Source: a virus
Virus record (IMG/VR): IMGVR_UViG_3300044977_000094
Location: 1 to 64,000 of that record
DNA: 64,000 nt
Direction: 5' to 3' (one strand)
The position numbers and the translations under genes are program-made. The notes under the pieces are model-generated. The model did not search any database, was not told the DNA's origin, and saw nothing but the letters and a program-made list of their open reading frames with translations. Position 1 is the stretch's first letter. Each line of letters starts with the position of its first letter. Positions 33,895-63,045 of this stretch are shown piece by piece.

Positions 33895-34107
33895 ATGGCA
33901 CCACTTCTCGACCAGGGGGCCTCTGGCTGGCGCAAGTCAACCGCCAGCGGAAGCCAGAACGAGTGCGTCGAGGTTGGCGAGCTCCCGGCCGGCGACATCG
34001 CGGTCCGCGACACCAAGGCGGACGGCTCCGGCCCGGTGCTCGGCTTCACGGCTGACGCATGGTCGGCATTCATCACCGATGTGAAGGGCGGCCGCTTCGC
34101 GGTCTGA
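33895..34107 (+). CDS. DUF397 protein (BldB/Scr2-like)
   Basis: WRKSTASG..ECVEV..AVRDTK..GPVL.F...W.AF. Confidence 0.92.
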   Translation: MAPLLDQGASGWRKSTASGSQNECVEVGELPAGDIAVRDTKADGSGPVLGFTADAWSAFITDVKGGRFAV

Positions 34108-34253
34108 GGTGTCACCTGTAGGTCCGTGGTCCCCGGCGCGTGAATCGCCGGGGGCCACGTTTGTGCCTGGGGTCCACGCTAACCGCTGTGGCCGACAGGG
34201 GCGCAACGACCGGCGCGTCGTGGTGCTGCCACTGCGCCTGCGACACTGATCCA

Positions 34254-34469
34254 GTGACCCCAGCCCCCGCCCCGGACCCGCAGTGTGCGATAGACCGCGC
34301 CAACGGGGCGATCAGGGCGTACCTGCGGGGCCTGCCGGGGCGGTCGCCGGTCACGGTCGAGCAGCGGGCCGAGTACCACCGGCTCGTCGACGTCTACATG
34401 GCCGCCGTCGCCGAGCGGGACGGGCGGGCGCGCGAGGGTGAGGACGAGCCCGAGCCCGTCGCGGCGTGA
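34254..34469 (+). CDS. Small hypothetical protein
   Basis: NGAIRAYL..RAEYHRLV.VY helical ORF. Confidence 0.5.
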   Translation: MTPAPAPDPQCAIDRANGAIRAYLRGLPGRSPVTVEQRAEYHRLVDVYMAAVAERDGRAREGEDEPEPVAA

Positions 34470-34494
34470 CACCAGAGCGCGCCTCTCGCACACC

Positions 34495-34516
34495 TGTCGG
34501 ACCGGTGCCCTATGCT
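34495..34516 (+). promoter_or_regulatory. PafBC/RecA-NDp-like promoter
   Basis: TGTCGG-N10-TATGCT. Confidence 0.55.
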
Positions 34517-34594
34517 CGCCCGCGTGCCCGATGAAGTGGCAGGCGCTACGGAAAGCCGCCGGGGCACCAGAGGACCGGCCCAAGCCGGAATGAC

Positions 34595-34633
34595 AAAAAG
34601 CCCCCGCCGCCTGCCGAAGCAGACGACGGGGGC
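34595..34633 (-). terminator. Intrinsic terminator of the late operon
   Basis: GCCCCCGTCGTCTGC-TTCG-GCAGGCGGCGGGGGC followed by TTTTT on the minus strand, after the endolysin. Confidence 0.8.
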
Positions 34634-34650
34634 AACAAGCCGTGGCGGCC

Positions 34651-35373
34651 CTACGCGGGAGGCGCGAGCTTGGCGACGGCCGCCTGAAGCGCGGTCACCT
34701 GCTCCGACAACGACTTCACCGCAGCGTTGGCCTCAGCCACAGCCGAGGCCAGGGCGCCGTAGTGCTCATCCATGAACGCCATCACCTGGAGGAACGTCCG
34801 CGTCGCCGACTGGGCGTCGCCCACCTCCGTCACCTTCGTGCCCATCAGGGTCTCGACGAACAGCTGTGCATCAGCAAGAGTCACGGCATCCTCCGGGGGA
34901 GTCGGCGGGGTCGGGGGAACGGGGTCGACACCGGGCCAGTAGTCGGCCACGACGGAGGTGTCGTAGGCGTCCGTCGATGCGTACTGGTGGGCAATCGCGC
35001 CCGTTGGGATCGTCGGGCTGTTGTCGTACGCGGCGATCCAGTACTGCGGCTCCGACACCCCAGCCGCCTGGAACGCAGCCCGAACCGCAGGCCAGTTCGC
35101 CGCATCGCAGTACACCGTCAGCAGCGAGTTCGGGACGTCCTTCATCGTCTGCGTACACCAGGTCACCGCCTGCTCGGGCGTGGCGTCGCCCGACTCGACG
35201 TCGAGCACCTGGGCCCGATCCGACCACGCGACCGCGATCGAGACCTCGATGGCGTTCGGGAACTCCGACCGGATCGCAGCCAGGTTGGCGTAGATCCCGT
35301 CCACGTAGCCGGCCACCATCACGGCCGACCGCGGCAGCGCCGACGGCGTCACCGCATCGAACATCGTGCGCAT
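34651..35373 (-). CDS. Endolysin (GH25-like muramidase)
   Basis: VLDVESGDA (DxE), TVYC, YWIAAY, AHQY; follows the holin. Confidence 0.75.
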   Translation of the reverse strand: MRTMFDAVTPSALPRSAVMVAGYVDGIYANLAAIRSEFPNAIEVSIAVAWSDRAQVLDVESGDATPEQAVTWCTQTMKDVPNSLLTVYCDAANWPAVRAAFQAAGVSEPQYWIAAYDNSPTIPTGAIAHQYASTDAYDTSVVADYWPGVDPVPPTPPTPPEDAVTLADAQLFVETLMGTKVTEVGDAQSATRTFLQVMAFMDEHYGALASAVAEANAAVKSLSEQVTALQAAVAKLAPPA

Positions 35374-35382
35374 GGCGCCCCC

Positions 35383-35769
35383 TCAGCCAGCAGCCGGGGA
35401 CGGGCTCGGCGCCGGGGCGGGCTTCGGCAGCGACGCGACCGGGGTGACGTGGCCGCGCAGCACGAGAGCCATCAGCGAGACGATCACGGCGTTCAGAGAA
35501 GACACGGCGCCCGAGGACACATGAGGCACCCCGAACGCGACCAGGACGGTCGCGATCGCGGTCACGGCACCGGTCAGCGCCGCCACCGGGAACGGACGCA
35601 CCGACACGGCAGCGACCAGCGCCAGGACCGCCGTGGTCGCCGCCTCCAGGGCACCGGTCTGGCCGCCGGTCAGGCTGAGGCCGAGACCCACGGCCAGGGC
35701 CAGCAGGGACTGCACGAGCCCGGTCAGCATGACGGGCTCGGTCTTGATGACGTTCAGGATCTTGTTCAT
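35383..35769 (-). CDS. Holin-like membrane protein
   Basis: Four hydrophobic helices; EPV..LRGHVTP. Confidence 0.75.
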   Translation of the reverse strand: MNKILNVIKTEPVMLTGLVQSLLALAVGLGLSLTGGQTGALEAATTAVLALVAAVSVRPFPVAALTGAVTAIATVLVAFGVPHVSSGAVSSLNAVIVSLMALVLRGHVTPVASLPKPAPAPSPSPAAG

Positions 35770-35781
35770 GGGTAGCCCCTT

Positions 35782-36609
35782 TCAGGCCGCGATGACGAAC
35801 TGCTTGAAGTCCGCGTAGCTGCCGAGCAGCGCCAGCGTGGACAGGTGGATCCGGTAGGAGCCGTTGTCGCCCCACGACGACGACCAGCTGTTCCGGACCC
35901 GGACGTGGGACTTGTCGCCGTCGATCCGGCCGATCAGGTCGAACTTCAAGGCCTCAACTGCGGTGATGCAGGTCTCGTGGCCGCCCGCGACCCCGGAGGA
36001 GATGGCGCGCTCCAGTGCCAGCATTCCGCCGTCGCCGTCGACGAAGCCGAGGTTGTCGGGCTCCATCCATGCCTCGAACCAGGGCAGTCCGACAATGACG
36101 CTGCCGCCCTGGAGCAGGGAGACCAGGTTGCGGGTCCCGGAGGCGGTCTTGTGGCCCTGGATGAGTCCCTGGCTTTCCAGCTCCGTGCAGACGTACAGGC
36201 CGGTCGACCCGCAGTCCGTGGGCGGCCACTCCTGGGCCGGGTCGCCGGTCTGGTCGGTCACCGCGTGGTACAGCTTGATCGCGAACTCCTCGTCCGCGAC
36301 CGCGTCTCCAGACAGTCCTATCTGCGACAGGGTCGACGCCCCATGCACGGCGGCGTACCGCTCACCCAAAGACGCAGTGCCCGCGTTGCAGGTGCACGAC
36401 CCGAGCGCGTCGACCTTCGCGGCACCGGGCACGAGCTGGGAGGTGTCGATGCCCTGCTCGATGAGGTCTTCCTGGTCCAACACGGGTATCGGCGACTCGT
36501 GGTCGACGGTGGTGAGCTTCTCGCCGCGGTGTAGGTGCATGCGGTCCAGGCGCATCGGCTCCGGGGTCGCGTGCCGGCCGAACTTGGTGGGGGTGGTGCC
36601 TGCGTACAT
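35782..36609 (-). CDS. Papain-like (C1) cysteine peptidase
   Basis: LDQ..GSCTCNA, GGHE and VRNSWSSSWGDNG catalytic motifs. Confidence 0.85.
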   Translation of the reverse strand: MYAGTTPTKFGRHATPEPMRLDRMHLHRGEKLTTVDHESPIPVLDQEDLIEQGIDTSQLVPGAAKVDALGSCTCNAGTASLGERYAAVHGASTLSQIGLSGDAVADEEFAIKLYHAVTDQTGDPAQEWPPTDCGSTGLYVCTELESQGLIQGHKTASGTRNLVSLLQGGSVIVGLPWFEAWMEPDNLGFVDGDGGMLALERAISSGVAGGHETCITAVEALKFDLIGRIDGDKSHVRVRNSWSSSWGDNGSYRIHLSTLALLGSYADFKQFVIAA

Positions 36610-36629
36610 GGGCCCTCCGGGCATGGGAA

Positions 36630-36651
36630 AGTCCCCGCCGCGGCGGGGACT
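36630..36651 (-). terminator. Palindromic hairpin after the PLD/VIT/permease trio
   Basis: AGTCCCCGCCGCGGCGGGGACT perfect palindrome followed by a short T run on the minus strand. Confidence 0.55.
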
Positions 36652-36668
36652 GAGGGTTTGAGGAAGGG

Positions 36669-37091
36669 TCAGGCTCCTGGGGTGTCGCCCTGGATGGAGG
36701 CCGCGGGAGCTGTGTTCTGCTCGACGGCGGCCAGCCGGTCGGTGAGGGCGGCAAGCAGGGCGAGGACCTGGCGGTCGTCGGTCAGGGTCTCGTCGGTGCT
36801 GGCGCCGATGTGGTTGAGCAGGGCCTCAAGTGCCCGCTCCTGCCTGTTGTTACTCGCAGCGATCAGGTAGCCGATGAACAGCTCCAAGATCGTTGTCACC
36901 GTGTTGAGCGGGAAGTTCCAGCTGTTTGAGGTGAACCAGCTCGGCAGGAAGGGGTCGTGGGCGATCTCCGGGCCCAGGAGCGTCCACACCATGAGCGCCA
37001 CGAACCAGAAAGCGATGTTGAGAGGGGTGCCGATCGCGTAGCTGACCTTGTCGGCAGCATCGACGAAGCGGTCATTCAGGCGGCGGCTCAT
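36669..37091 (-). CDS. Low-affinity iron permease (Fet4)/DUF1003-like membrane protein
   Basis: RF..AD.VS..IGTP..VW..LGP..W..PLNTVTTI..LI...NNRQ. Confidence 0.65.
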   Translation of the reverse strand: MSRRLNDRFVDAADKVSYAIGTPLNIAFWFVALMVWTLLGPEIAHDPFLPSWFTSNSWNFPLNTVTTILELFIGYLIAASNNRQERALEALLNHIGASTDETLTDDRQVLALLAALTDRLAAVEQNTAPAASIQGDTPGA

Positions 37092-37525
37092 GCGGCACTC
37101 CCAGGCAGGAACAGGCCGCACACCAGCACGGCGACGAAGATCAGGCCGAGGACCGCGCCGGTCTCGGCGAGCGCCCGGACCGGATGGCGGTCAGGGCGCA
37201 TCAGGGCCACCGCCACACCGATCCCCAGGCAGATGACGACGGAGCACACCAGCGCGACCACGCCGGACGTGAGTGCATACGGGATGGCTGGCAGTACTGC
37301 GCCGGCGCCGGTGGCCGCGCCCATGACGCAGGAGGCTCCCAAGCCGCTGTCGGAGTCCGACAGCCACTCGCCACCGGCCATGCTGAGCGCGGAGGAGATT
37401 CCGCCCGACAGTGCGGCCGGGAAGATCAGCGACTGGTGGCCCAGCAGGAACAGGACCACGCCGATCAGCGACATCATGCCGTCGCTCAGCCCGAACACGG
37501 CCGGGCGCAGGAGTTGGCGATTCAC
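37088..37525 (-). CDS. VIT1/CCC1-family Fe/Mn transporter (minimal)
   Basis: PAVFGLSDG and ALSMAGGEWLS signature motifs; about 5 TM helices. Confidence 0.82.
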   Translation of the reverse strand: MNRQLLRPAVFGLSDGMMSLIGVVLFLLGHQSLIFPAALSGGISSALSMAGGEWLSDSDSGLGASCVMGAATGAGAVLPAIPYALTSGVVALVCSVVICLGIGVAVALMRPDRHPVRALAETGAVLGLIFVAVLVCGLFLPGSAA

Positions 37526-38064
37526 CGACCACCCGCCGCGCGCCGGGCCTTCAGCATGTGGGTGTGGATGGCGTCGATTCGCGCGCGAGCCTCAACGGCC
37601 ATGGTCAGGTTCCGGGTGACGGTCATCTCGTTGTCCTGGAGGGACTCTCCAGACGACGAGAGATTCGTGGAGCCGTCGACGACATCCATTCCGTCCACGA
37701 TGATGAGCTTCATGTGCATGATCGCGCCGCGTTCGGAGCGGCCAGCGACGATGGAATTCGCGGGGAAGTCCGCCTTCGCGAGTAGCGCCCGCTCGTGCAC
37801 GCCACCCGCCTGGCTGGAGTCGAGCGTCAACTGCACGAAGCAGGAGCCGCTGTCGAGCTTGCCGTGGAGGGCCGCAGCGACCTCGTCGTCGTCGAACCCG
37901 TACATCGCGACCACCAGCGAATGGCGGGCGGAGGCGATCAGGTCGACCAGCACGCCGTGCACGTCATCCACGGGTGCGAAGAATCGTCGCGCGTCGCTCG
38001 GGTATCCAGGAAGGAACCCTCCCGCCTTGTGGTGGTCGAGCTCAGATAGATCAGCCAGGGCCAC
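37522..38064 (-). CDS. Phospholipase D-superfamily protein (single HKD)
   Basis: ARHSLVVAMYGF..MHMKLIIVDG..GSTNLS..NE. Confidence 0.88.
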   Translation of the reverse strand: MALADLSELDHHKAGGFLPGYPSDARRFFAPVDDVHGVLVDLIASARHSLVVAMYGFDDDEVAAALHGKLDSGSCFVQLTLDSSQAGGVHERALLAKADFPANSIVAGRSERGAIMHMKLIIVDGMDVVDGSTNLSSSGESLQDNEMTVTRNLTMAVEARARIDAIHTHMLKARRAAGGR

Positions 38065-38452
38065 TGGTACCCCCTCTCTCGTCCGCATCTGGCGGATCGT
38101 TCTCGTGCTGGAGCTGGACGCGGAGGATGAGTACGACGCGCCAGACGATGACGACCGGCACGAGCGCGAACGCCAGGACGGTGAACCACGCGAACAGCGG
38201 CGTGTCCGCTGAGCTGACGCCGAGGGCGTGGTGGACGACCGAGGGCAGTAGGGTCAGGGCCAGGGCGCTGTCCATCGCCAGGACATTGCGCCCGATCGCG
38301 GAGCGCCACCACGGGGCGACCGCCCAGAAGATCAAGATGGATGCGATGGCGGCGCAGAACGTGACGATGACCTCGATGGTCGTCGCATGGACGATGACGT
38401 CCAGGGTTCCCGGGCTCACGGATACCCCCTCGAAATGGTGAAGAGCGGTCAA
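38051..38452 (-). CDS. Putative holin / multi-pass membrane protein
   Basis: APWWRSAIGRNV motif and TM helices. Confidence 0.65.
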   Translation of the reverse strand: MTALHHFEGVSVSPGTLDVIVHATTIEVIVTFCAAIASILIFWAVAPWWRSAIGRNVLAMDSALALTLLPSVVHHALGVSSADTPLFAWFTVLAFALVPVVIVWRVVLILRVQLQHENDPPDADERGGTSGPG

Positions 38453-38694
38453 TGCGGCGGCATCCCGAAGAGCTCGCCGATGGACTCGCTGAAGTGGTTA
38501 CGGCGCCGAATCCGGCGCAGGTGCTCGGCGGTCGTGGAGGCCTGGGCCTTGAGGCCCTCAGCCACGGGTGTCGCCGACGATGCCCGCGCCATTGCTGCGG
38601 CAGCTTCCCGCTGGCCCGGCGTCACGGTGCGCTCCAGCGACACACAGGATCGTCTACGGAGCGGGTGGCGGAGGTAGTGGACCCAGCGGGGCAC
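38449..38694 (-). CDS. Small lysis-region protein
   Basis: C-terminal RRRNHFSE motif. Confidence 0.6.
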   Translation of the reverse strand: MPRWVHYLRHPLRRRSCVSLERTVTPGQREAAAAMARASSATPVAEGLKAQASTTAEHLRRIRRRNHFSESIGELFGMPPH

Positions 38695-39004
38695 CGGCCT
38701 TCACCTCCCGCCCGGGCGGCGTAGGGAGCGCAGAGAGCAGATGGACAGCCGTGCGGGACAGCTCCTGGAGCTCCAGCGTCGACTCCTGCAACTGCGCACG
38801 GGCGGCAGCCTCGCGTTCGGCTACGAGGCGCCAGGTATCCCGCTCGGATGAGATCTCCCGGATTCTGCGGTCACGGTCCTCACGGAGATCCTCGACCTGG
38901 CGACGCGGCACCAGACGCCCAGTGAGGACGAGCAGGATGACGATCGCCAGGATGGTGGCGGCGCTGAGCTGGAGAACGCCCGCCTGGTCCCAGAGTTCTT
39001 CCAC
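38654..39004 (-). CDS. Membrane-anchored coiled-coil lysis-region protein
   Basis: TM followed by GRLVPR..WR coiled coil. Confidence 0.65.
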   Translation of the reverse strand: MEELWDQAGVLQLSAATILAIVILLVLTGRLVPRRQVEDLREDRDRRIREISSERDTWRLVAEREAAARAQLQESTLELQELSRTAVHLLSALPTPPGREVKAGAPLGPLPPPPAP

Positions 39005-39057
39005 GGGCGGTCCCTCTCATGATGGTCAATCCGCAGCAGCCGCCCCAGGGGCGACGG

Positions 39058-40992
39058 CTACGACAGGTAGCCGTACGGCACCGCCACGCCCGTGGTGGAG
39101 ATCGCCGCATAGGTGGTGGAGCCCACCGTCCCCGGTGTCGTCAGGCCAGTGGTTGAGGTGCCGGACGGGGGAAGGGCCGTCAGGATCGCCGTTCCCAAGG
39201 CAGTCGCCGATGCCGCGCTCGTCGGCGGCGTCCCAGCCGCCACCATCAGGCCCCAGTAGTAGACGCCGCTGGTCGGCGGCGTATACGTGGCGGTGAGGGC
39301 GACTGTCGCCAGGGACGAGGCGGTGATCGTCGCAGTCAACTGGTCTGCTGTGACGGCCCGCAGGATCCGCGAGGAGTCCAGGACGCATCCCCACCAGTGC
39401 GTCGCGGTGGTGGATCCGGTCGTGCCGCACACCCAGTTCCAGTGCCCGACGGGGATGCCGGCCTGGAGCCATACCTCGGCCAGGTACAGCGTTCCCGAGG
39501 TCAGTGTCATCGTCGAGCTGGTGCACAGGATCCGCGGCACCGTCTCGGCGAGAGCGGCCGACGGTGGCGAGGACGAGGACACCTGCCCCGCGGGCTTCTT
39601 CCACGTGCCGTTGCCGGAGCCGTCGGACGTGAGGACGTAGCCGGAGGTGCCGCCGGTGGTGACCTGGAGGGTGTCGACGGTGACGCCGCCGTAGAACGTC
39701 TGCGCGCCGTAGGTGGTCTGGCCGACGCCGCCGACATTCGCGACGGTGACGGAGTTCAGCTCCAGATTTCCTGCGGTCGTGTCACTGCTGAACAGCGTCG
39801 ACATGTAGCTGTTCGACAGCCACGTCAGCTCCAGCACGACCCCGCCCGGGGCGGCGGACGGGTTGAACCGGACAGCGGAAGCCTGGTGCAGGGGGTTCGC
39901 GCCGCGGTCCCAGGTGTGACCGGAGACCAGGACGGGCCCGGCGTAGTTCGCGAACTCGAAGCCCGCGAAGGACAGTGAGCTGGAATTGTTGTTGTTCGAG
40001 TCGGCAATGCAGCCGACCGCCGAAACGTTCGCGGTGCCGTCGAAGAAGAAGCCGTTCCGCCCGTTGTCCTGCGCGTAGCAGCCGGTGAGGGTGCCGCCGG
40101 ACGTCGAGGTGATATGGAAGCCGCTGCCGGTGGTCGTGCCGGACGAGGTCACCGTCGAGGTGGAGGCGTTCCAGCCGGAGAACCAGGCCTTGCAGTTGCT
40201 GACCAGGCAGTTCCCGGCGACCAGGAACCCGTCGAGGCCGCAGTTCGCGGCGTCGCAGTTCGACACGTAGTCGTCATTCGTCAGATTGAAGCCGTTGCCC
40301 TGGCAGTTCCAGACCTGGATGTTGTTGAAGATGCTGTCGTGCTTGTACGTCGACTGGACGCCGTCGCCGTTGAAGTACTCGATGTGCAGGTTGATAGCCC
40401 GGCAGCGGATGTCGTTGTACTCGTCGGTGCCGCTGGAGTACGTCCAGTTCCCCTGGAACAGCAGCCCGTTGATCGTATGGGTCTGGGCGCCGGCATTGCC
40501 CTGCAATCGCAGGTCCATGACGCACACCATCTCCGCGTGCGTCGCATTGGTGATCAGCGGGCCTGCGGTCATGCCGGCCTTCGCGATCAGCGTGGTCGCC
40601 CGCGGGCCTGCCCCCCGCAAGGTCACGCCGTGCGGGATCACCAGCGGACCCGTGACGTAGAAGCCCGGGCCGAGGTACACGGTCGTGGACTGGGCGAGCG
40701 GGCTGCTAGGGGCAGCCGCGGCCAAAGCGGCTGTCAGGGCTGCGGTGTTGTCGGTCGAGCCGTCGCCCTTCGCGCCATAGAGCGGGGCGTTGGCGTTCAC
40801 CCAGCCCAGGGCAGACGCGTCCACCCCGGGCTGCCAGCTGACGTTGCCGGAGCCGTCCGAGGTCAGGACATCGCCGAGACTGGCCCCAGAGGGGATCTGC
40901 ATCGCCGGGGAGCCGGTCAGGACCAGCGGCCCGGTCAGGGTGCCGCCGGCGAGAGGAAGGCGGTCGGCGGCGCCGTAGACAGTCGCGGTCAT
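39058..40992 (-). CDS. Tailspike / receptor-binding protein with pectate-lyase-like beta-helix
   Basis: YGAKGDGSTDNTAAL and repeated N..G.G beta-helix rungs. Confidence 0.85.
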   Translation of the reverse strand: MTATVYGAADRLPLAGGTLTGPLVLTGSPAMQIPSGASLGDVLTSDGSGNVSWQPGVDASALGWVNANAPLYGAKGDGSTDNTAALTAALAAAAPSSPLAQSTTVYLGPGFYVTGPLVIPHGVTLRGAGPRATTLIAKAGMTAGPLITNATHAEMVCVMDLRLQGNAGAQTHTINGLLFQGNWTYSSGTDEYNDIRCRAINLHIEYFNGDGVQSTYKHDSIFNNIQVWNCQGNGFNLTNDDYVSNCDAANCGLDGFLVAGNCLVSNCKAWFSGWNASTSTVTSSGTTTGSGFHITSTSGGTLTGCYAQDNGRNGFFFDGTANVSAVGCIADSNNNNSSSLSFAGFEFANYAGPVLVSGHTWDRGANPLHQASAVRFNPSAAPGGVVLELTWLSNSYMSTLFSSDTTAGNLELNSVTVANVGGVGQTTYGAQTFYGGVTVDTLQVTTGGTSGYVLTSDGSGNGTWKKPAGQVSSSSPPSAALAETVPRILCTSSTMTLTSGTLYLAEVWLQAGIPVGHWNWVCGTTGSTTATHWWGCVLDSSRILRAVTADQLTATITASSLATVALTATYTPPTSGVYYWGLMVAAGTPPTSAASATALGTAILTALPPSGTSTTGLTTPGTVGSTTYAAISTTGVAVPYGYLS

Positions 40993-41288
40993 GCAGTCGC
41001 CCCCAGGATGATGTAGGTCTGCTGGGCGCCCACGGGAAGCACGTATACCGCCGCGCCTGCGGTGGGCGTATACGGGGACAGGTAGGCGTAAGGGCCGGTC
41101 AGGTTGGGCGAGCCGTTGATATAGACCTGCGGGTTGCCGCTGGTGTAGCTGCCGGAGATGACGGCGGGCAGGCAGGCCAGCGGGTATCCGGAGTCGATTC
41201 CGGCGGTTCGGGACTCCAGCTTGGCGACCCGGGCCAGGAGCTGCTTCAGCGTCGCCGCGAACCTGTCGTTCAGCGCCTTCGGGTACAT
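40989..41288 (-). CDS. Minor tail protein
   Basis: Position in the tail module. Confidence 0.65.
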   Translation of the reverse strand: MYPKALNDRFAATLKQLLARVAKLESRTAGIDSGYPLACLPAVISGSYTSGNPQVYINGSPNLTGPYAYLSPYTPTAGAAVYVLPVGAQQTYIILGATA

Positions 41289-41310
41289 CGTCACGGCGCC
41301 CACCCCCCGC

Positions 41311-42519
41311 CTACTCGCCGACGATCACCGCTGAGGTCTGGAGCTGCAATGTCTCGTCCTGCTGCGGGCCGGGTGGCTGGAGGGTCCAGCCGGTGATCCT
41401 TAGCTGCTGCTGCAAGCCGGGGGCTCCGCCTGCCTGTGGCGGGTGCAGCGGTGACGTTGCGGCGAATGTGGTGGTGTCGCCCAGGACGATGTCCCGCAGC
41501 GTCGGGTATGCGCCCCCGCCGACGGTGAGGGTGGGCAGTGTCATGCCCTGCGTCACGAGGGCCACCTGGCCTGTCGCGAAGGCGTTCACCTGGGCCTGCG
41601 TGGTGACCACGGAGCCCTGCCAGCTGACGGTCGACTCCATCACCGGGTATCCGGCGTCGAGGTCGGCCAGGTCAGCGCCGTATGGGTACTGGGACTGCCA
41701 TTGGAGCTCGCTGCCGTTCGGTGGCGCGGTCGCCCAGATGTAGTTGGAGGACTGTGAGCCGGTGATCTGGTAGCCGTAGTCGATCACGTTGCCGGGGTAG
41801 GTGAGGGTGTACCCGCAGCTCCCGAGGGGGCGCCCGAGCTGCTCGTAGGCCAGCTGCACGAACGTGGCGAGGTTGCCGCTGGAGTCCAGCCCGGCCGAGA
41901 AGACGTACTCCAAATTCCCCGAGGCGGTCATGTCGGACCAAGCGCTGCTGATCTGCGTGAGGTCACTATAGGTGTAGCTGGCGGTCCACGGGACGCCGGA
42001 GATTGCCGAGGATCCGGTCGGTACCACGAGGCGGGCGACGCGGCCGTTGCTGGCCATCAGCTCCAGGTAGCCAGCGGGCCGGGTCGCTGCGGGGGAGACG
42101 CTGGAGATGTACGAGCTCTGCTTGGACAGGCCGTAGTTGAGCAGGTCGAGGAACGCCGCGTAGAGGTCGACGGCGGCGTACTCGATCGTGTCGGTGACGA
42201 GCCGGTGTGACCAGACGGAGTCGAGAGTCTGGGCGGCGATCGGCAGGGTTCCTGCCTGGCGGGACATGTCCGGCCAGTCCCAGACGACGCCGGACCACAC
42301 CGGATACCCGTCCATGATCACCCAGAGGAGGGCGCGGCGGCAGGCCAGGGCCGTGACCGCGGGCGCGTTGACGGAGTACAGCTCGTTGAGGTTGAGCGTC
42401 CCCGTCAGGGAACCGCCGCCGTTCAGCTGCTGCGAGAAGGACTGGACGTTGAGCGGCAGGTTGTCCGCAAGCAGCTTTCCGCTGATCAAGTCAGTGGCGG
42501 CATAGACATAGGTGCTCAC
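41311..42519 (-). CDS. Minor tail / baseplate hub protein
   Basis: Position; FSQQLNGGGSL..PVWSGVVW. Confidence 0.75.
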   Translation of the reverse strand: MSTYVYAATDLISGKLLADNLPLNVQSFSQQLNGGGSLTGTLNLNELYSVNAPAVTALACRRALLWVIMDGYPVWSGVVWDWPDMSRQAGTLPIAAQTLDSVWSHRLVTDTIEYAAVDLYAAFLDLLNYGLSKQSSYISSVSPAATRPAGYLELMASNGRVARLVVPTGSSAISGVPWTASYTYSDLTQISSAWSDMTASGNLEYVFSAGLDSSGNLATFVQLAYEQLGRPLGSCGYTLTYPGNVIDYGYQITGSQSSNYIWATAPPNGSELQWQSQYPYGADLADLDAGYPVMESTVSWQGSVVTTQAQVNAFATGQVALVTQGMTLPTLTVGGGAYPTLRDIVLGDTTTFAATSPLHPPQAGGAPGLQQQLRITGWTLQPPGPQQDETLQLQTSAVIVGE

Positions 42520-45642: not shown

Positions 45643-48600
45643 CTATACCCCACTGAGGGCGAGCCCCATCTCCCGCTGGATCGCAGCCATCTGCTCGGTG
45701 TTCGGATACTGCGTGCCATAGAAGTTGATCACTGCCTGCTTGGCGCCCAGACCGGCCGGGCCCGTGCCGCCCTGGGCGGTGATCTGCTTGGCCAGCGCGA
45801 CGAAGGCCGCCGACTCCTCGGGGGTAAGTACGGCCTCCGGCTTCCCGAGACCATTGACTGGCATGTTCCCGGGCATCAGCCAGCCACCGGAGTCGTAGCC
45901 CCAACCCATGGCCTTGTATACGGCGTTCGCCGAGGCCATGCGCTGCGGAAGCGACGCCGTCAGGCTCGCCGGCCGCTCGTAGTAGTCCTGGTAGATCTCG
46001 GCCGCGTTCGACGCGCTCGTCGCACGGTTGACCATCCCCGGACCGCCACCCCACGACAGGATCGCGTTGAGCTGCGTCATCAGGTCCGCCTGGGCGTTCC
46101 CGGTGATGTAGCCAGGCGGGTACGGAGTCCACTGGATCAGACCACCACCCCCACCGCCGCCGATCTCCAGAATCTCCGGGTTACCGCCCGATTCGGCGTC
46201 GATGTTGCCCGCGACGCCCGCCGCAGCGAACCGGGAGAACCCGTGCGCCGCCAGGAAGGACGCGATGGCCTTCCAGTTCGCAGGCAGCGAGCCCACAGCA
46301 CCCGAGCTACCACCGGGCAACTGCCCGGAGCCGAGGCCGAGCATCGACAGCGCCTGATTGACGGCATCCCCGACTAGCGTCTTGGGGACAGCCAGCATCA
46401 TCTGTGCCAGATCCCCAGTAGCGCCCTTGGTGCCGACGAACGAGTTCAGCGCATTGGTCAGCGCTGTCCCGTTGCCCGTCGCCAGCGCCGCCACGATCTT
46501 GCCGACGTCCATGGCCTTCCCCACAGCGCCGGTGATGCCGCCCCAGATGTCCGACGCCACACCCGCGATCCCACCACCGCTGAAGCCCATCGCATGCTCG
46601 GCGCCATGCTCAACGGGCCGGTCGACGGTGCGCTTCCGCGCCTCCTTCTTCAGCAGCTTCCCGAGCTCACTCTTGTGCTCATCGTCATCGCCAGCCACAC
46701 CACCACCGGCGAATCGAGTCGGACCGGAGACCCGGCCTCCCCCGTACTGCGCGTTGAGTGCGTGCACCGTGCCCGGGCCGATCGCACGGACCGCCTCCGG
46801 CACCAGCACGCCTTCCCCCGGGCTGAGCATCGCCGGGATAGTGTCGTGCCCCGGCGAGTAGCCGGCCAGTACGCCGCCCGCCGCGAGTTGGGGGATATCC
46901 GGCAGCTTGAGGCTTCCCAGGCCGACGGCTTTGACGACGCTGTTCCACAGGTTTTCAATGCCGTCCTTGTACACGTCCGTGATCAGGAAGTTCACGGGAA
47001 TCTTGAAGGCTGTTTCGAGGCCGGACCAGGTCGCACTCAGATCATGGACGAAGTCACGCGCCCCGGTCGATATCCCGGACCAAACGTCCTCGGCGACGGA
47101 CTTAATGCCACCCCAAATCGATGACCAATTTCGGGCCAATTCGATCGCCCCGAGGGCGATGAGGCCGACCGGACCAAGGAGCGGGAGCAGCCATTTTCCG
47201 AATCCGTTGTAGACAAAATTCCAGGCATCCTCGGCCCAGTGCTTGATGTCCCCCCAGACCTGCGACCAGTGCGTGGCCAAATACGTGATCGCAAGCACCA
47301 GGAGGCCGATCCCGGCGATTATGCCGCCTGAGGAGGCGTCCTCGACGGCTGCGGCCTCTTCCGAGGAGATCTCCGCCGCTTCGTTCTGTGCCTCGAACAT
47401 GGCAGTCGCCTCGCCGTGCTCGGCAGCCCATTCATCCGAGGCGGTCTCGGCTTCCTGCATATTCGTGCCGAAGCCGGAAACGAACTGCACGATGGAATTC
47501 TTCGCGCTGCTCATCATCCCGGAGATCTTGCTGCCGATCCCCTCGAAAGGAGACGTCAAGAATCCGACGACTTTCGCGCCGTTATCCTTCGCGGACTGCC
47601 ACAGAAGCTGCCCGTCCAGGCTCGTCGGCATCGCGCCCTTCACCGCATCGGCGAGCGAGGATCCCCAGCCGCCGACGGTCTTGGCGAGCTTCGGGAGGAG
47701 CCCCTCGACGGCGGGAATGACGTCGCCCTCGGCGCCGGTGATCTCCTCCGAGCCGAACAGCTTCGTCCACACGCCCTTGCCGGCCGCCTGCGCCGCACTG
47801 CCGAGCTGCTTGCCCCAGCCGCGCACGGCGCTCGCGAGCTTGCCGCCCCAAACCTGGGCGGCGGTGGTCGTGTTGACCCAGGCCTTCCCCAAGCCCTCGG
47901 TGATCTTCTGACCCCAGACCTGCGCCGCCGTAGTGACGTTCACCCACGCCCTGCCAGCCCCCTGGGCAGCCTTGGTTGCGGCGCCCGACACCCCGCTCCA
48001 CGCCTTGCCGATGGTCTGCGCCATCTTGGACATGCGCCCAGGGATCCCGGAGATCAGCTTGTAGCCGTCAGCGATCGCCTTGAACGGCATCGACACGTAC
48101 TTGTTCGCGAGCTTCATCGCCAGCATCCCGGCGACGATGTCCGCGATGACCTTGACGACGGTGCCGTTCGGGTGCGCGTTCAGATACCGCGTCAGCGGCC
48201 CGAGAGCCGTGGCCACCAGGCCGACGATCGCACCCAGCGGCGGACCGACGTGGGCAATGATGTTGCCCGCAGCCTCAAGGAAGGCGTTGATCGGCCCCGT
48301 CTTCTGGCCGACCGCCGCCGCCAACCCGGTTGCCGCGTGGGCGATCCCGGCGAGCACAGCAGCGATCCCGTCGACCGCGCCCTTCTTCGACCCGATCAGG
48401 GCCAGCTCCTGGATGAACTGGGCGAACGCGGGCAGCACTATGTCCGCGAAGCGGATCCCGTTGCTGATCAGACCGTTGAGGACCTGGACGAACTGCGGGG
48501 TCTGCATCTGCTTGCCGAACTGACCGAACGCGTTGCCCATCGCCGAGCCCATGCGGCCGACACCGCTGGTCACATCCGGCATCAGCTTCGAGATCCCGGT

Positions 48601-50271
48601 CAGCCAGATCGACATGCCCGGCAGCACCGAGTCCTGCGCCGCCGCCTCAAGGCCCTTGAAAGCGCCCTTCATCCCGAGGACCTGGTCGACGAACGCGCGA
48701 CCCTCCGGAGTCAGCCGCGACATGTCCTTCTGGAACTGGTTCGCCGCCTCGTTCTCCGTGGACGCGGTCGCAGCCCACTGGAGCTGCTGCTCCTTGATCG
48801 TGTTCGTGAGGTTCCGCTCGGCGACCGCGACCTGCTGCGAGTCCATCCGCTGCTGGTACGCCGCCTGCTCCTGCGCCTGCGACACCTGGAGTTGCGCCTG
48901 CTTGACCTGCGCCGCGTTGTTCAGCTCAGTGTCAGTCAGGTTCCGCTGAGCGTCAGCAGCCTGCATCTGCGCATCGGTCAGCTGGTACTGGGCGGCGGTC
49001 ACGCCCTGCTTGGCCTGGATGACCAGCTGGCTGCCTGACACGCCCTGCTTGTTCGCCAGGTTCGCGGCGGTCTGCGCGTCCGTCTCCTGGTCGGTGGCGT
49101 CCTTGAGCTGCTGCTTGGCCTGGGCAACAGCCAGCGCCGCCTGCTCGCGGTTGAGGTCCGTGCTGTAGGCGTTCTGGTCGGTGAGAACCTGCTGGTACTC
49201 GGCCTGCTGTACCGCCAGGCTCGCCGCCGCGACGTTCAACTTCGAGTCGGCGAGCTGGTCATCAAGCTGCGTGATCTGCTCACGCGCCTGCACCCACGCC
49301 TGCGTCAGGTTGTACTGCGCCTCAGTGAGGCCGTAGTTCGCCTGCTCCAGACCCTGCTGGGCCTGCTCCACGCTCTGGATCGCCTGCACCTGACTGGCCG
49401 CGGCGTTCCGCTGCACCGACGCCAGGTTCATCTCAGCCGACTCAATCGCCTGCGCGCTGGTCACCGCATCCTGCGCCGCCTGCTCCCGCGCCTGCGTCAC
49501 CGACTGCTGCGCCTGCTGCTGCTGAACCGCATTCGAGAAACTCGTGCTGGCCAGCTGTGCCGGCGTCAGCCCAACATTCAGCGACGCCTGGTGCGCCGCC
49601 GACAACGCCGAGGCCACCGGCCCCAAAGCCAGACCACCGGTCAGACCCAGCAGCCCCATGCCGGTCGCGGCACCGCCGATCCCCGGCGCCAGCAGACTGC
49701 CGCCGAGCAACAGGTTCTGAAAGAAGCCTCCGCTCTCACCACCACCCCCACCCCCGCCACCACCGCCACCCCCGGAGGAGCCCCCGAGGCTCGGGCCGCC
49801 GGCCTGGTCCTTGAAGGCGTCGAGCTGGGCCTGTGCCTCAGCCAGCTTCGCGTCGAAGTCGCTAGTGTCCAGGCCCAGAGTCGGGTCGGCATGCTTGGTG
49901 TCGAGATCGTCCAGCTTTGCGCGGGCGTCGTCGACCTTCGCATCCAGGTCGGCAGACTCCAGGCCAACCTGCGGCCGGGCCTCCTTGACGTCGAGCTCGT
50001 CAAGCTTCGCCTTTGCGTCGTCGGCCTTCGTGTCCAGTTCGGTGTCGTCCAGCGTTACCTGCGGCTGCGCGACCGCCCCGTCGAGCTCCTCGACGGTCGC
50101 CCGCGCCTCGTCCGCCTTCGCGTCGAGCTCGGAGGTGTCCAGGGTGACCCGCACCGAGGCGCTGACGCCTGCGGTCGCCTCCTCAACGGCAGCCTCAACC
50201 TCTTCCTTGAGACCCTCAGAATCGGCGCTGACCTGCACAAACGCTGTGGCGATCCGGAAACCCTCAGCCAT
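45643..50271 (-). CDS. Tape measure protein with C-terminal tail-lysozyme domain
   Basis: 1542 aa, Ala/Gly/Gln-rich; AAAGVAGNIDAESG..GLIQWT..YERP. Confidence 0.93.
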   Translation of the reverse strand: MAEGFRIATAFVQVSADSEGLKEEVEAAVEEATAGVSASVRVTLDTSELDAKADEARATVEELDGAVAQPQVTLDDTELDTKADDAKAKLDELDVKEARPQVGLESADLDAKVDDARAKLDDLDTKHADPTLGLDTSDFDAKLAEAQAQLDAFKDQAGGPSLGGSSGGGGGGGGGGGGESGGFFQNLLLGGSLLAPGIGGAATGMGLLGLTGGLALGPVASALSAAHQASLNVGLTPAQLASTSFSNAVQQQQAQQSVTQAREQAAQDAVTSAQAIESAEMNLASVQRNAAASQVQAIQSVEQAQQGLEQANYGLTEAQYNLTQAWVQAREQITQLDDQLADSKLNVAAASLAVQQAEYQQVLTDQNAYSTDLNREQAALAVAQAKQQLKDATDQETDAQTAANLANKQGVSGSQLVIQAKQGVTAAQYQLTDAQMQAADAQRNLTDTELNNAAQVKQAQLQVSQAQEQAAYQQRMDSQQVAVAERNLTNTIKEQQLQWAATASTENEAANQFQKDMSRLTPEGRAFVDQVLGMKGAFKGLEAAAQDSVLPGMSIWLTGISKLMPDVTSGVGRMGSAMGNAFGQFGKQMQTPQFVQVLNGLISNGIRFADIVLPAFAQFIQELALIGSKKGAVDGIAAVLAGIAHAATGLAAAVGQKTGPINAFLEAAGNIIAHVGPPLGAIVGLVATALGPLTRYLNAHPNGTVVKVIADIVAGMLAMKLANKYVSMPFKAIADGYKLISGIPGRMSKMAQTIGKAWSGVSGAATKAAQGAGRAWVNVTTAAQVWGQKITEGLGKAWVNTTTAAQVWGGKLASAVRGWGKQLGSAAQAAGKGVWTKLFGSEEITGAEGDVIPAVEGLLPKLAKTVGGWGSSLADAVKGAMPTSLDGQLLWQSAKDNGAKVVGFLTSPFEGIGSKISGMMSSAKNSIVQFVSGFGTNMQEAETASDEWAAEHGEATAMFEAQNEAAEISSEEAAAVEDASSGGIIAGIGLLVLAITYLATHWSQVWGDIKHWAEDAWNFVYNGFGKWLLPLLGPVGLIALGAIELARNWSSIWGGIKSVAEDVWSGISTGARDFVHDLSATWSGLETAFKIPVNFLITDVYKDGIENLWNSVVKAVGLGSLKLPDIPQLAAGGVLAGYSPGHDTIPAMLSPGEGVLVPEAVRAIGPGTVHALNAQYGGGRVSGPTRFAGGGVAGDDDEHKSELGKLLKKEARKRTVDRPVEHGAEHAMGFSGGGIAGVASDIWGGITGAVGKAMDVGKIVAALATGNGTALTNALNSFVGTKGATGDLAQMMLAVPKTLVGDAVNQALSMLGLGSGQLPGGSSGAVGSLPANWKAIASFLAAHGFSRFAAAGVAGNIDAESGGNPEILEIGGGGGGGLIQWTPYPPGYITGNAQADLMTQLNAILSWGGGPGMVNRATSASNAAEIYQDYYERPASLTASLPQRMASANAVYKAMGWGYDSGGWLMPGNMPVNGLGKPEAVLTPEESAAFVALAKQITAQGGTGPAGLGAKQAVINFYGTQYPNTEQMAAIQREMGLALSGV

Positions 50272-61764: not shown

Positions 61765-63045
61765 TCACGCGGCGAGCGGGATCCGGTTGAACCACAGGCC
61801 CTGCGACGACTTGACCGCGTAGCGGCCGCCGTCCAGGGAGTGGTCGTCGGCCTTGACCGGCTTGTCGACACCCAGAAGTGCCGCCCGGTCGTCCCAGGAG
61901 TAGCCGCCGATCTCGTCGATCCAGCCCTGGCAGCCCCGCGCCGCCTTCAGCCGCTTGCGGGCCAGGAGCGAGGACACCAGGCGGATGCCGTCGAGGACGC
62001 TGTTGTCAGCATCCGCGACCGGCCAGCCGTCCTGGAAGCACTGGACCTTGAGGGACGCCGCGGACGGGTCGACGAACAGGTGCTGCACGGTGGGGCCGCG
62101 CAGGTGCGTTCCCGGGAACCGCACGTTGTTGATCCAGTCGCGGAGCTTCCCGGACAACTCGACGTCGGTGAGCTGCCGGTGCCGCTGGCGTGAGTCCCAC
62201 CGGAACTCGTCCACGAGGAACAGGCACGGCTCCTGCCCGCTGTCGCCGCCACCACGGTTGCTCATGCCCAGCAGCAGCGCCGCGGTCGGCGCGGTCGTGC
62301 CGTAGTCCAGGCCGATGCCAAGCCAGGTGTGGATGGGCGGGACGAGGTCGACGACGTGGACCGACGGATCCCACATGTCGTAGATCGCGCCCTCGGCGGC
62401 GCACCACTCGCCGAGGACCCGGCGCCGGTACCACAGGCCGACGTTCTCGGCCTTGACGGAGGCCTTGTACTCCTCGTCGAGGGACGGGTTGTCGTCGAGG
62501 AGGAAGTGCCAGGAGGCCAGGTCGAGTTCGTGGCCGCGCAGCAGGTAGTTCTTGCGCAGCCAGTGCGCCGGGTTGTCGGGGTTGGTGGTCGCGAACAGCT
62601 TTGCGCCGGGTACCGACATGCGGCCCAGGAGCTGTGAGAAGAACTCCTCGGACACCAGCGTCGCCTCGTCGACGTAGGCGCCGGCTGCGGTGAGACCGCG
62701 CAGCCGGGTCTCGGCCCGGGTGTCGTTCGCGCCGATGACCCACACGCGCCGGCCCAGGATGGTGCCGGAGGGCGCGCCGGGGGTGTAGCGGGTCTGGGTG
62801 GCGAGGTCCCCGAACACGGCGTAATCCTGGAGCGGGGAGAACACGTTCCGCATCGCGGTCTGCGACGTCTTCGCCACCACGACCAGCTCACCGCGCGGCG
62901 CGTTCGCCACGTAGATCAGCCAGCGGAGCAGTGAGGAGATCGTCTTTCCGGAGCGGATCGCGCCCGTCCAGATGTTGATCCGCGCGTCGGCCTCGGCCAC
63001 CGATCTGATCTGCTTCGGCGACAGGGGCAGGGCGTTGAGCTGCAC
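61765..63045 (-). CDS. terL: Terminase large subunit
   Basis: GAIRSGKT Walker A, YVDE Walker B, TTNP, GLDYGT, DHSLDGGRY. Confidence 0.96.
   Translation of the reverse strand: MQLNALPLSPKQIRSVAEADARINIWTGAIRSGKTISSLLRWLIYVANAPRGELVVVAKTSQTAMRNVFSPLQDYAVFGDLATQTRYTPGAPSGTILGRRVWVIGANDTRAETRLRGLTAAGAYVDEATLVSEEFFSQLLGRMSVPGAKLFATTNPDNPAHWLRKNYLLRGHELDLASWHFLLDDNPSLDEEYKASVKAENVGLWYRRRVLGEWCAAEGAIYDMWDPSVHVVDLVPPIHTWLGIGLDYGTTAPTAALLLGMSNRGGGDSGQEPCLFLVDEFRWDSRQRHRQLTDVELSGKLRDWINNVRFPGTHLRGPTVQHLFVDPSAASLKVQCFQDGWPVADADNSVLDGIRLVSSLLARKRLKAARGCQGWIDEIGGYSWDDRAALLGVDKPVKADDHSLDGGRYAVKSSQGLWFNRIPLAA

What the first reader, a model, noticed from the sequence alone, without database searches (positions are those of the whole stretch)
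36669..38064. PLD + VIT1/CCC1 + low-affinity iron-permease-like trio inside the lysis region
Seen: three genes joined by GTGA and ATGA overlaps, lying between holin-like membrane genes (38051-39004) and the protease-holin-endolysin block, and closed by their own palindromic hairpin (36630-36651). They encode a single-HKD PLD (HMKLIIVD..GSTN), a minimal VIT1/CCC1 protein that keeps the TM Asp (FGLSDG) and Met (SMA) metal ligands but has no cytoplasmic metal-binding domain, and a Fet4/DUF1003-like protein (NTVTTI..NNRQ). Known: VIT1/CCC1 proteins move Fe/Mn out of the cytosol, Fet4-like proteins are low-affinity metal permeases, and single-HKD PLDs act as dimeric phospholipases or nucleases. Inference: this may be an undescribed late-expressed module coupling membrane remodelling to metal flux, serving as a lysis accessory, as control of Fenton chemistry, or as transporter folds co-opted as holin/antiholin. 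It is the best candidate for a new system in this window.
Basis: partly seen in the sequence, partly recalled or inferred. Interest (0 to 1): 0.85.

Follow-up and report, generated by a model that had tools for sequence, protein, structure and literature searches.

The report
Phage mini iron-transporter pair, separate nuclease
A soil-actinomycete prophage carries, inside its cell-bursting gene block, a stripped-down relative of the plant/yeast iron transporter VIT1 coupled to a small two-helix membrane protein, a pairing that recurs in several uncultured phages and is not described in the papers searched, whereas the neighbouring PLD gene is a common, swappable Nuc-type nuclease and not part of a fixed trio.

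Summary
Three minus-strand genes (PLD 37522-38064, mini-VIT 37088-37525, PF04120-like 36669-37091) are chained by GTGA and ATGA overlaps. They lie between a Phage_holin_2 gene and a peptidase-holin-lysin block and are followed by a 9-bp hairpin.

All three family calls pass Pfam's cut-offs. The AlphaFold model of the 145-aa protein matches EgVIT1 (6IU3, TM-score 0.72) minus its cytosolic metal-binding domain.

The "trio" is not a conserved unit.
- **PLD:** it belongs to a very large Nuc/NucT/DrmC-like family (1822 clusters). Its members sit in the tail/lysis part of three other actinobacterial prophage-like loci, none with VIT or FeP.
- **Its slot:** a sister prophage in the same record and four JGI contigs hold a weakly HNH-like His-rich gene there instead.
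- **The conserved unit:** mini-VIT followed directly by a PF04120- or DUF1003-type 2-TM protein, seen in 7 of about 21 phage lineages. About half of the lineages have a lysis gene within roughly 3 kb.

The conservation pattern (TM1, TM2, acidic cytoplasmic loop) fits a working cation/H+ exchanger better than a holin.

My best reading is a late-expressed ion-transport accessory pair. The function is unproven. This scan noted the same mini-VIT theme earlier on other DNA (e1-5346223).

The parts
38654..39004 (-). 116-aa protein with one N-terminal TM helix and a coiled coil; first gene after the tail fibre
   Evidence: phrog_4565 at 9.2e-12; conserved at 87% in sister cassettes
38449..38694 (-). 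DUF7620 small protein
   Evidence: PF24596 at 4.2e-12; same position in L011-L013
38051..38452 (-). Phage_holin_2 family membrane protein
   Evidence: PF23778 at 5.3e-13, 49.5 bits against cut-off 32
37522..38064 (-). Single-HKD PLD-superfamily protein, Nuc/NucT/DrmC-like; occupies a swappable slot
   Evidence: PLDc_2 at 5.5e-11; DrmC PDLC02614 at 2.2e-12; NucT; Nuc 1BYR at 2.3e-5; 1822 homologue clusters; replaced by another gene in L011/L016
37088..37525 (-). Mini-VIT: 145-aa, 5-TM VIT1/CCC1-family protein without the metal-binding domain
   Evidence: PF01988 at 1.6e-9; AF2 pLDDT 89.4; Foldseek top hits 6IU3/6IU4, prob 1.00, TMq 0.72; 139 homologue clusters of about 145 aa
36669..37091 (-). 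FeP: 140-aa, 2-TM PF04120 (Fet4-type 'iron permease')/DUF1003-like protein with a C-terminal cytoplasmic helix
   Evidence: PF04120 at 5.6e-6; alignment A2 shares AD/GT/W/LN/G/NR columns with DUF1003-type partners; AF2 gives two long helices; 562 representatives at E<=1e-3
36631..36650 (-). Conserved intergenic hairpin directly before the peptidase start codon
   Evidence: -18.9 kcal/mol, z -3.4; conserved with a compensatory T-A to C-G change
35782..36624 (-). Papain-like peptidase of the lysis cassette
   Evidence: phrog_16701 at 2.3e-18; weak Peptidase_C1; homologues sit in the VIT/FeP-bearing cassettes L008, L037, L039 and L040, and a weaker (32%) one near the PLD in L047
35383..35769 (-). 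Holin (4 TM)
   Evidence: phrog_9752 'holin' at 3.2e-14
34651..35373 (-). Putative endolysin
   Evidence: Weak GH25 at 4.4e-4; 33-45% identical to genes beside lysis genes in L004, L008, L020, L037 and L048
34600..34633 (-). Strong terminator-like hairpin ending the late operon
   Evidence: 15-bp stem plus T-run

Best explanation
Two separate things lie side by side in the late operon of a temperate siphovirus of a Streptomycetaceae-like host.

**(a) The PLD.** A Nuc-type single-HKD PLD, most likely a dimeric, metal-independent nuclease, occupies a mosaic slot. Sister phages fill that slot with a weakly HNH-like His-rich protein.

**(b) The conserved pair.** Mini-VIT plus a 2-TM PF04120/DUF1003-type protein form a translationally coupled pair. 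Mini-VIT is an MBD-less VIT1 that probably dimerises like EgVIT1. It inserts N-in/C-out and moves a divalent cation (Fe2+/Mn2+ type) out of the cytoplasm in exchange for H+. A conserved acidic cytoplasmic loop (EWLSDSD) stands where the metal-binding domain would be. The 2-TM partner, with an invariant polar TM2 (LNTVTT..EL) and an NR motif, is a swappable accessory or second ion path.

The pair is made late, together with holins and lysin. It changes the host's ion or metal state shortly before lysis. It either lowers free cytosolic Fe/Mn or adds a proton leak that tunes when the holins fire.

**Shown:** homology, fold, gene order, recurrence of the pair, purifying selection. **Inferred:** dimer, topology, substrate, direction, timing, physiological role.
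For: **Identity of mini-VIT**
- The Pfam hit passes the cut-off.
- The model (pLDDT 89.4) matches EgVIT1 6IU3 across all five TM helices, with the MBD as a gap (209 alignment columns, TMq 0.72, rmsd 3.0).
- D15, S48 and M49 are invariant and E53 nearly invariant in 27 relatives of 54-87% identity.
- TM1, TM2 and the following loop are the best-conserved parts (majority fractions 0.83, 0.87 and 0.84). TM4 and TM5 score 0.60 and 0.66. This matches the EgVIT1 pathway, which TM1 and TM2 form at the dimer interface (PMC7714665).
- MBD-less VTL proteins transport iron (same review).
- K/R counts place the N-terminus and the TM4-5 loop inside. I read this directly from the sequence.

**Selection**
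- dN/dS is 0.32 for VIT and 0.26 for FeP, like the other cassette genes at 0.12-0.30.

**Recurrence of the pair**
- A PF04120- or DUF1003-type gene lies directly downstream of mini-VIT in the window, in the L016/L011-15 group, and in L001, L019, L020, L035 and L036.
- Both partner types share the same motif columns.
- Each gene can also occur alone beside lysis genes (VIT in L027 and L037; FeP in L008). VIT also occurs with no lysis gene recognised nearby (L017, L045).

**Viral bias and ion theme**
- Only 2 close hits appear in 185,579 species genomes, at least one in a prophage (L050 is also an IMG/VR viral contig).
- The nearest Atlas clusters are 75-100% viral.
- In one phage a K+ channel gene sits directly upstream of mini-VIT.

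**PLD**
-.
Against: - No functional data exist for any phage mini-VIT or for bacterial PF04120/DUF1003 proteins.
- The 'iron permease' name is carried over from yeast Fet4.
- I matched residues to EgVIT1 Asp43/Met80 by motif and Pfam register, not by a printed structural alignment.
- The EgVIT1 Glu72 position appears to be Gly here. That numbering is from my own memory.
- In about half of the lineages a recognisable lysis gene lies within roughly 3 kb of mini-VIT, which also fits a lysis role.
- FeP has the formal look of a class II holin: 2 TM, N-in/C-in, charged C-terminal tail.
- There is no obvious benefit to a phage from exporting iron minutes before lysis.
- Only 7 of about 21 lineages have the 2-TM partner, so the pairing is not obligate.
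Confidence: 0.5

Rival explanations
1. Transporter folds co-opted as lysis proteins. Mini-VIT and/or FeP act as holin, antiholin or lysis-timing regulators, like the multiple 'holin-like' TM proteins of actinophage cassettes. They would have no real metal transport role.
For: - The pair is embedded between Phage_holin_2 and the peptidase-holin-lysin block and is translationally coupled.
- A lysin, peptidase or holin gene lies within roughly 3 kb in about 11 of 21 VIT lineages.
- FeP alone sits before a peptidase and lysin in L008.
- FeP has 2 TM helices plus a charged C-terminal helix.
- Actinophage cassettes are known to hold 1-4 holin-like TM proteins that set lysis timing (PMC9671378; PMC13056207 abstract).
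Against: - The cassette already has two recognised holin-family genes.
- Holins are usually poorly conserved. Here the polar and charged intramembrane residues typical of an ion pathway are invariant.
- Some phages carry mini-VIT with no lysis gene recognised within the fetched flank (L017, L045).
- Look-alike small VITs are attributed to giant viruses, which do not lyse with holins (automatic taxonomy, weak).
Confidence: 0.22
2. Lysogenic-conversion moron. The pair, with or without the PLD, is expressed from the prophage and gives the lysogen metal (Fe/Mn/Co) tolerance or another fitness gain.
For: - Accessory genes often sit between tail and lysis genes (established knowledge).
- A conserved hairpin follows the pair.
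- VIT-family proteins detoxify Fe/Mn (PMC7714665).
Against: - No promoter-like site was found in 34000-41500.
- All junctions are overlaps or a few bases, so the genes read as part of the late operon.
- 150 of 151 Streptomycetaceae genomes sampled already carry 1-4 full-length VIT genes, so the gain would be small.
Confidence: 0.1
3. One reading: a PLD phospholipase remodels the membrane in concert with the two transporters as one late module.
For: The three genes are contiguous and coupled in this window. PLD-superfamily members include phospholipases (established knowledge).
Against: - The PLD is absent from every other VIT or FeP locus examined.
- PLD-family contexts lack VIT/FeP.
- The slot is replaced in sister phages.
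- The nearest solved and curated relatives are nucleases.
Confidence: 0.05
4. A prophage-borne defence or abortive-infection set: a DrmC-like PLD nuclease with membrane effectors.
For: The PLD hits many PADLOC DrmC models (best 2.2e-12) and NCBIfam DISARM_DrmC_I at 2.2e-9. Prophages often carry defence genes.
Against: - The NCBIfam score of 37 bits is far below the 133-bit cut-off.
- The neighbours are holin, VIT and FeP, not DISARM partners.
- VIT and FeP hit no PADLOC model.
- The genes lie inside the late operon, and the PLD is not linked to the pair elsewhere.
Confidence: 0.05

Closest known systems
VIT1/CCC1 family (PF01988): EgVIT1 (PDB 6IU3/6IU4), and especially the MBD-less forms (plant VTL/nodulin-like transporters, some prokaryotic groups, TIGR00267)
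   Same: Five-TM fold (Foldseek prob 1.00, TMq 0.72). TM1 'G..DG' and TM2 'SM..GE' motifs are present. N-in/C-out topology is inferred. MBD-less members are known and transport iron (PMC7714665).
   Different: Only 145 aa, with the MBD replaced by a 7-residue conserved acidic loop. It is carried by phages, often beside holins and lysins, and often followed by a 2-TM partner. The Pfam profile matches only the N-terminal quarter, and the TIGR00267 score is far below its cut-off. No transport data exist.
PF04120 'low affinity iron permease' (named after yeast Fet4) and PF06210 DUF1003 small bacterial membrane proteins
   Same: Passes the PF04120 cut-off marginally. Shares motif columns with DUF1003-type proteins that take the same position in other phages. 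Small stand-alone 2-TM architecture.
   Different: A distinct subfamily. The cellular PF04120 genes found in 28 of 151 Streptomycetaceae genomes barely match the phage profile and lie next to neither VIT nor lysis genes. Function of the bacterial members is unknown, and no solved fold matches.
Nuc (Salmonella pKM101, 1BYR), NucT (6EHI) and DISARM DrmC: single-HKD PLD nucleases
   Same: One complete HKD motif, about 180 aa, with best sequence matches to Nuc/NucT/DrmC.
   Different: No signal peptide, unlike periplasmic Nuc. No DISARM partners nearby. Encoded in the tail/lysis part of actinobacterial prophage-like loci. No match to it in the INPHARED phage collection.
Holin / holin-like lysis regulators of actinophages (Ms6 gp4/gp5, LysF1a/LysF1b)
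   Same: Small membrane proteins inside the lysis cassette and co-transcribed late. FeP has the 2-TM N-in/C-in layout.
   Different: VIT and FeP belong to cellular transporter-like families, carry invariant polar intramembrane residues, and match no holin family.
Virus-encoded ion transport proteins (e.g. chlorovirus Kcv K+ channels)
   Same: Minimal versions of cellular ion-transport folds carried by viruses. One relative has an Ion_trans_2 K+ channel gene directly upstream of mini-VIT.
   Different: A different fold, and probably a carrier rather than a channel. The role of the phage version is unknown.

Membership tests
VIT1/CCC1 (PF01988) | Profile match above the curated cut-off | tested here: met
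   38.3 bits against 28.1, E 1.6e-9, but only profile positions 1-57 of 214
VIT1/CCC1 (PF01988) | Five-TM fold as in EgVIT1 | tested here: met
   AF2 pLDDT 89.4. Foldseek ranks 6IU4 and 6IU3 first (prob 1.00; 6IU3 TMq 0.72, rmsd 3.0). The next hits have prob <=0.44.
VIT1/CCC1 (PF01988) | Pathway residues: Asp in TM1 (EgVIT1 Asp43) and Met in TM2 (Met80) | tested here: met
   D15 and M49 are invariant in 27 relatives. Equivalence to Asp43/Met80 rests on motif and Pfam register, not on a residue-level structural alignment.
VIT1/CCC1 (PF01988) | Cytoplasmic Glu-rich metal-binding domain between TM2 and TM3 | tested here: not met
   Only about 7 residues link TM2 and TM3. This domain is also absent from accepted members (VTLs, groups IA/II/III; PMC7714665), so its absence does not exclude membership.
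VIT1/CCC1 (PF01988) | Fe2+/Mn2+ transport coupled to H+ | not testable with these tools
   Needs transport assays.
PF04120 Iron_permease / PF06210 DUF1003 | Profile match above the curated cut-off | tested here: met
   PF04120 scores 26.6 bits against 25 (marginal). The precomputed Pfam label is the same in relatives. Partners in L020 carry PF06210.
PF04120 Iron_permease / PF06210 DUF1003 | Iron permease activity (as yeast Fet4) | not testable with these tools
   The papers found naming PF04120 or 'low affinity iron permease' appear, from their titles and abstracts, to be fungal, genome-survey or gene-cluster studies; none appears to test a bacterial member; I read no full texts. Only two papers mention DUF1003.
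PLD superfamily, Nuc-like nucleases | HxKx4Dx6GSxN motif, single copy, about 150-180 aa | tested here: met
   The motif is read from the translation. PLDc_2 scores 42.9 bits against 27. Nuc 1BYR scores 2.3e-5 over residues 29-155.
PLD superfamily, Nuc-like nucleases | Nuclease rather than phospholipase activity | not testable with these tools
   Inferred only from nearest relatives.
DISARM (DrmC as part of a DrmA/B/C system) | DrmC equivalog score and neighbouring DrmA/DrmB genes | tested here: not met
   NF038319 scores 37.2 bits against a cut-off of 133. The neighbours are holin, VIT and FeP.
Holins | Match to a holin family | tested here: not met
   Neither VIT nor FeP hits a holin family in Pfam or PHROGs. 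The flanking genes do.
Holins | Forms lethal membrane lesions that release endolysin | not testable with these tools
   Needs holin-null complementation.

The most novel reading that the evidence does not exclude
The mini-VIT/2-TM pair is a new kind of lysis clock. A transporter-derived cation/H+ exchanger, made with the holins, progressively drains the proton-motive force (or senses cytosolic Fe/Mn). This sets the moment the holins trigger and links lysis timing to the host's metal and energy state.
Probability: 0.15. Interest if true: 0.8.

Novelty: new variant of a known kind. Interest (0 to 1): 0.55.

Why it matters
Phage lysis cassettes are thought to hold lysins, holins, antiholins and spanin-like proteins. 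A conserved, selected homologue of a metal/H+ antiporter wired into that operon is not described in the papers I could search.

If it transports metal, it is a new class of phage auxiliary gene acting on host iron or manganese late in infection. If it tunes the proton-motive force, it adds a new component to lysis timing.

At 145 aa with a high-confidence model, it would also be a very small VIT-family protein to work with. That makes it a handy minimal system for studying the VIT mechanism without the metal-binding domain.

The PLD result matters in a different way. A very abundant Nuc-like nuclease family sits in the late region of the actinobacterial prophage-like loci examined, yet I found no match to it in the collection of deposited phage genomes.

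Tried and rejected
- **Cultured phages.** blastn of 34600-39100 and tblastn of each of the three proteins against 50,697 phage records found nothing.
- **Sequence search of PDB.** A search with the VIT profile or its N-terminus did not retrieve EgVIT1. Only the fold search did, so I have no residue-by-residue alignment to EgVIT1.
- **FeP fold.** VIA-align against 48,161 chains gave only generic long-helix or coiled-coil matches (best Z 7.5). This is no evidence for or against any fold.
- **L038 partner.** The 164-aa 2-TM gene after mini-VIT in L038 is not detectably related to FeP/DUF1003 (hhalign prob 1.9).
- **Cellular linkage.** PF04120 genes in Streptomycetaceae are not next to the listed canonical VIT genes, and their 8-14 kb neighbourhoods hold no mini-VIT or cassette protein. 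The pairing therefore looks phage-specific.
- **His-rich slot gene.** The HNH assignment stays weak (phrog_8048 at 0.006-0.008; Pfam HNH at 0.056).
- **Defence reading.** No PADLOC hit for VIT or FeP.
- **Complex prediction.** Co-folding VIT with FeP was not possible with the tools at hand.
Full report
**Setting**

The window is the first 64 kb of a 175,260-bp IMG/VR virus record with about 68% G+C. On the minus strand, from about 63 kb down to 34.6 kb, runs a siphovirus late operon:
- terminase (61765-63045), SPP1-type portal, and minor capsid protein;
- a 1542-aa tape measure with a lysozyme domain, and a pectate-lyase-like tail fibre (39058-40992);
- a 116-aa 1-TM protein, DUF7620, and Phage_holin_2;
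- the three genes of the finding;
- a papain-like peptidase, a holin (phrog_9752), and a lysin.

The only strong terminator-like site on this strand in the 34000-41500 scan follows the lysin (34600-34633).

**Observation**

A PLD start at GTG 38064 has a good SD-like sequence and gives 180 aa, matching homologues of 176-181 aa.

All three Pfam calls pass their cut-offs, and the HKD motif is complete. The hairpin (36631-36650) folds at -18.9 kcal/mol with z -3.4. It is conserved in position with a compensatory base-pair change in three relatives. Only three U follow it, and it abuts the peptidase start. I therefore call it a conserved structured intergenic element rather than a demonstrated terminator.

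**Is it a trio?**

No. The same record holds a second, related cassette at about 131 kb with VIT at 75% and FeP at 70% identity. Four JGI contigs share that arrangement:
- Phage_holin_2 - X - VIT - Iron_permease - peptidase - holin - WDGH - GH25.

There X is a 150-aa (or 125-aa) His-rich protein unrelated to the PLD. Homologues of X lie beside mini-VIT in two further lineages (L024, L037; alignment A4). They give weak HNH-endonuclease signals (phrog_8048 at 0.006-0.008; Pfam HNH at 0.056).

Across 58 loci the PLD accompanies VIT/FeP only in the window itself.

The PLD family is very large: 1822 clusters, with the 120 listed hits 66-76% identical. In three unrelated contexts (Streptomyces sp., Amycolatopsis halotolerans, and a JGI contig) it sits after tail genes and near a lysin, without VIT or FeP.

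Its best curated and solved relatives are nucleases:
- DrmC models (2.2e-12);
- NucT;
- Nuc 1BYR (2.3e-5) and NucT 6EHI.

So the PLD is a common, mobile late gene, most likely a nuclease. It may have replaced another nuclease-like gene in this slot, which is an inference.

**The conserved unit**

Mini-VIT has 139 homologue clusters, nearly all about 145 aa and mostly metagenomic. It has only two close hits among 185,579 species genomes: a Streptacidiphilus carbonis locus that is also listed as an IMG/VR viral contig (L050 = L001), i.e. a prophage, and a bog Actinomycetota MAG whose context I did not classify. The nearest ESM-Atlas clusters are 75-100% viral.

I grouped the loci by hand into about 21 distinct lineages. 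In 7 of them a PF04120- or DUF1003-type 2-TM gene follows mini-VIT directly. The two partner types share invariant columns (AD, GT, W, LN, G, NR).

In about 11 lineages a lysin, the cassette peptidase or a holin-family gene lies within roughly 3 kb. Each gene can also stand alone beside lysis genes (VIT in L027 and L037; FeP in L008). VIT also occurs where no lysis gene is recognisable (L017, L045).

The sampled hosts do not lack VIT: 150 of 151 Streptomycetaceae genomes carry 1-4 full-length copies. Cellular PF04120 genes, found in 28 of 151 genomes, belong to a different subfamily and are not adjacent to VIT or lysis genes.

**What mini-VIT is**

The AlphaFold model (pLDDT 89.4, pTM 0.81) has five TM helices. 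Its only convincing PDB matches are EgVIT1 6IU3/6IU4 (prob 1.00, TMq 0.72, rmsd 3.0), with the alignment spanning the whole target so that the metal-binding domain is a gap.
- D15 (FGLSDG), S48-M49 (SMAGGE), and S56/S58 are invariant, and D57 nearly so; E53 is nearly invariant.
- Conservation is highest in TM1, TM2 and the short acidic loop, and lowest in TM4 and TM5.
- In EgVIT1, TM1 and TM2 line the ion path at the dimer interface, Asp43 and Met80 are key residues, transport is H+-coupled, and MBD-less VTLs still move iron (PMC7714665).
- The positive-inside rule, read from the sequence, puts the N-terminus, the acidic loop and the Arg-rich TM4-5 loop in the cytoplasm, as in EgVIT1.
- dN/dS against the sister cassette is 0.32 for VIT and 0.26 for FeP, in line with neighbouring lysis genes.

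**What FeP is**

FeP is a 2-TM hairpin with a long C-terminal helix. It has a near-invariant external loop and polar TM2 (P.WFTS..NFPLNTVTT..EL), then NR. There are 562 representative relatives, all small stand-alone proteins. No informative fold match was found, and I found no functional literature on bacterial members.

**Mechanism**

I favour a working cation/H+ exchanger plus an accessory 2-TM protein, expressed late (confidence about 0.5). Whether the point is metal depletion or a proton leak that tunes holin firing cannot be decided here.

The holin/antiholin co-option rival (about 0.22) is kept alive by the gene position and by FeP's holin-like layout. The moron, integrated-trio and defence readings are less likely, for the reasons given under the rival explanations.

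**Novelty**

The families are known, and MBD-less VITs are known. A phage-borne mini-VIT with a swappable 2-TM partner inside lysis cassettes is not in the searchable literature.

This scan met the theme before on other DNA (e1-5346223, whose follow-up reached a similar verdict) and on the second copy in this record (e1-5680208, e1-5680212). I rate it a new variant of a known kind.

Noticed in passing
L028:4604-4972 (same contig as L005; IMGVR_UViG_3300044682_000126): A 122-aa K+ channel-like gene (Ion_trans_2 at 4.7e-9, with a TVGYGD filter motif) lies directly upstream of mini-VIT in an uncultured actinophage contig. Two ion-transport genes sit side by side.
   Followed up: partly
G000:C1:122000-140000 (L016), beyond the window: A second, related lysis cassette lies in the same 175-kb record. 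VIT and FeP are 75% and 70% identical to the window's copies. The PLD slot holds a His-rich, weakly HNH-like gene, and no homologue of the window's lysin was found. The cassette is mosaic at both ends.
   Followed up: partly
window 37522-38064; L047-L049: The Nuc-like PLD family is very large (1822 clusters, the listed ones 66-76% identical). It sits in the tail/lysis part of actinobacterial prophage-like loci, yet tblastn finds no match to it in 50,697 deposited phage records.
   Followed up: partly
window 35782-36624: A papain-like peptidase (phrog_16701) is a conserved member of these lysis cassettes. It recurs next to VIT and/or FeP in L008, L037, L039 and L040, with a weaker (32%) homologue near the PLD in L047. 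C1-type peptidases are not standard lysis proteins.
   Followed up: no
window 36631-36650: The intergenic hairpin before the peptidase start is conserved with a compensatory T-A to C-G change in relatives. Its 3' arm overlaps the likely ribosome-binding site, so it could gate peptidase translation rather than terminate transcription.
   Followed up: partly
L047:8815-10464: A TROVE (Ro60) gene lies just downstream of the PLD in a Streptomyces sp. prophage region. Other readers noted a phage-borne Ro60/Y-RNA operon in this record beyond the window.
   Followed up: no
window 45643-50271: The 1542-aa tape measure protein carries a C-terminal Phage_lysozyme2 domain (1.2e-18).
   Followed up: no
ESM Atlas: One of the nearest small-VIT clusters (159 aa, PF01988 on 100% of members) is attributed to Nucleocytoviricota. 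Stripped-down VITs may therefore be a wider viral theme. The taxonomy is automatic and I did not check it.
   Followed up: no
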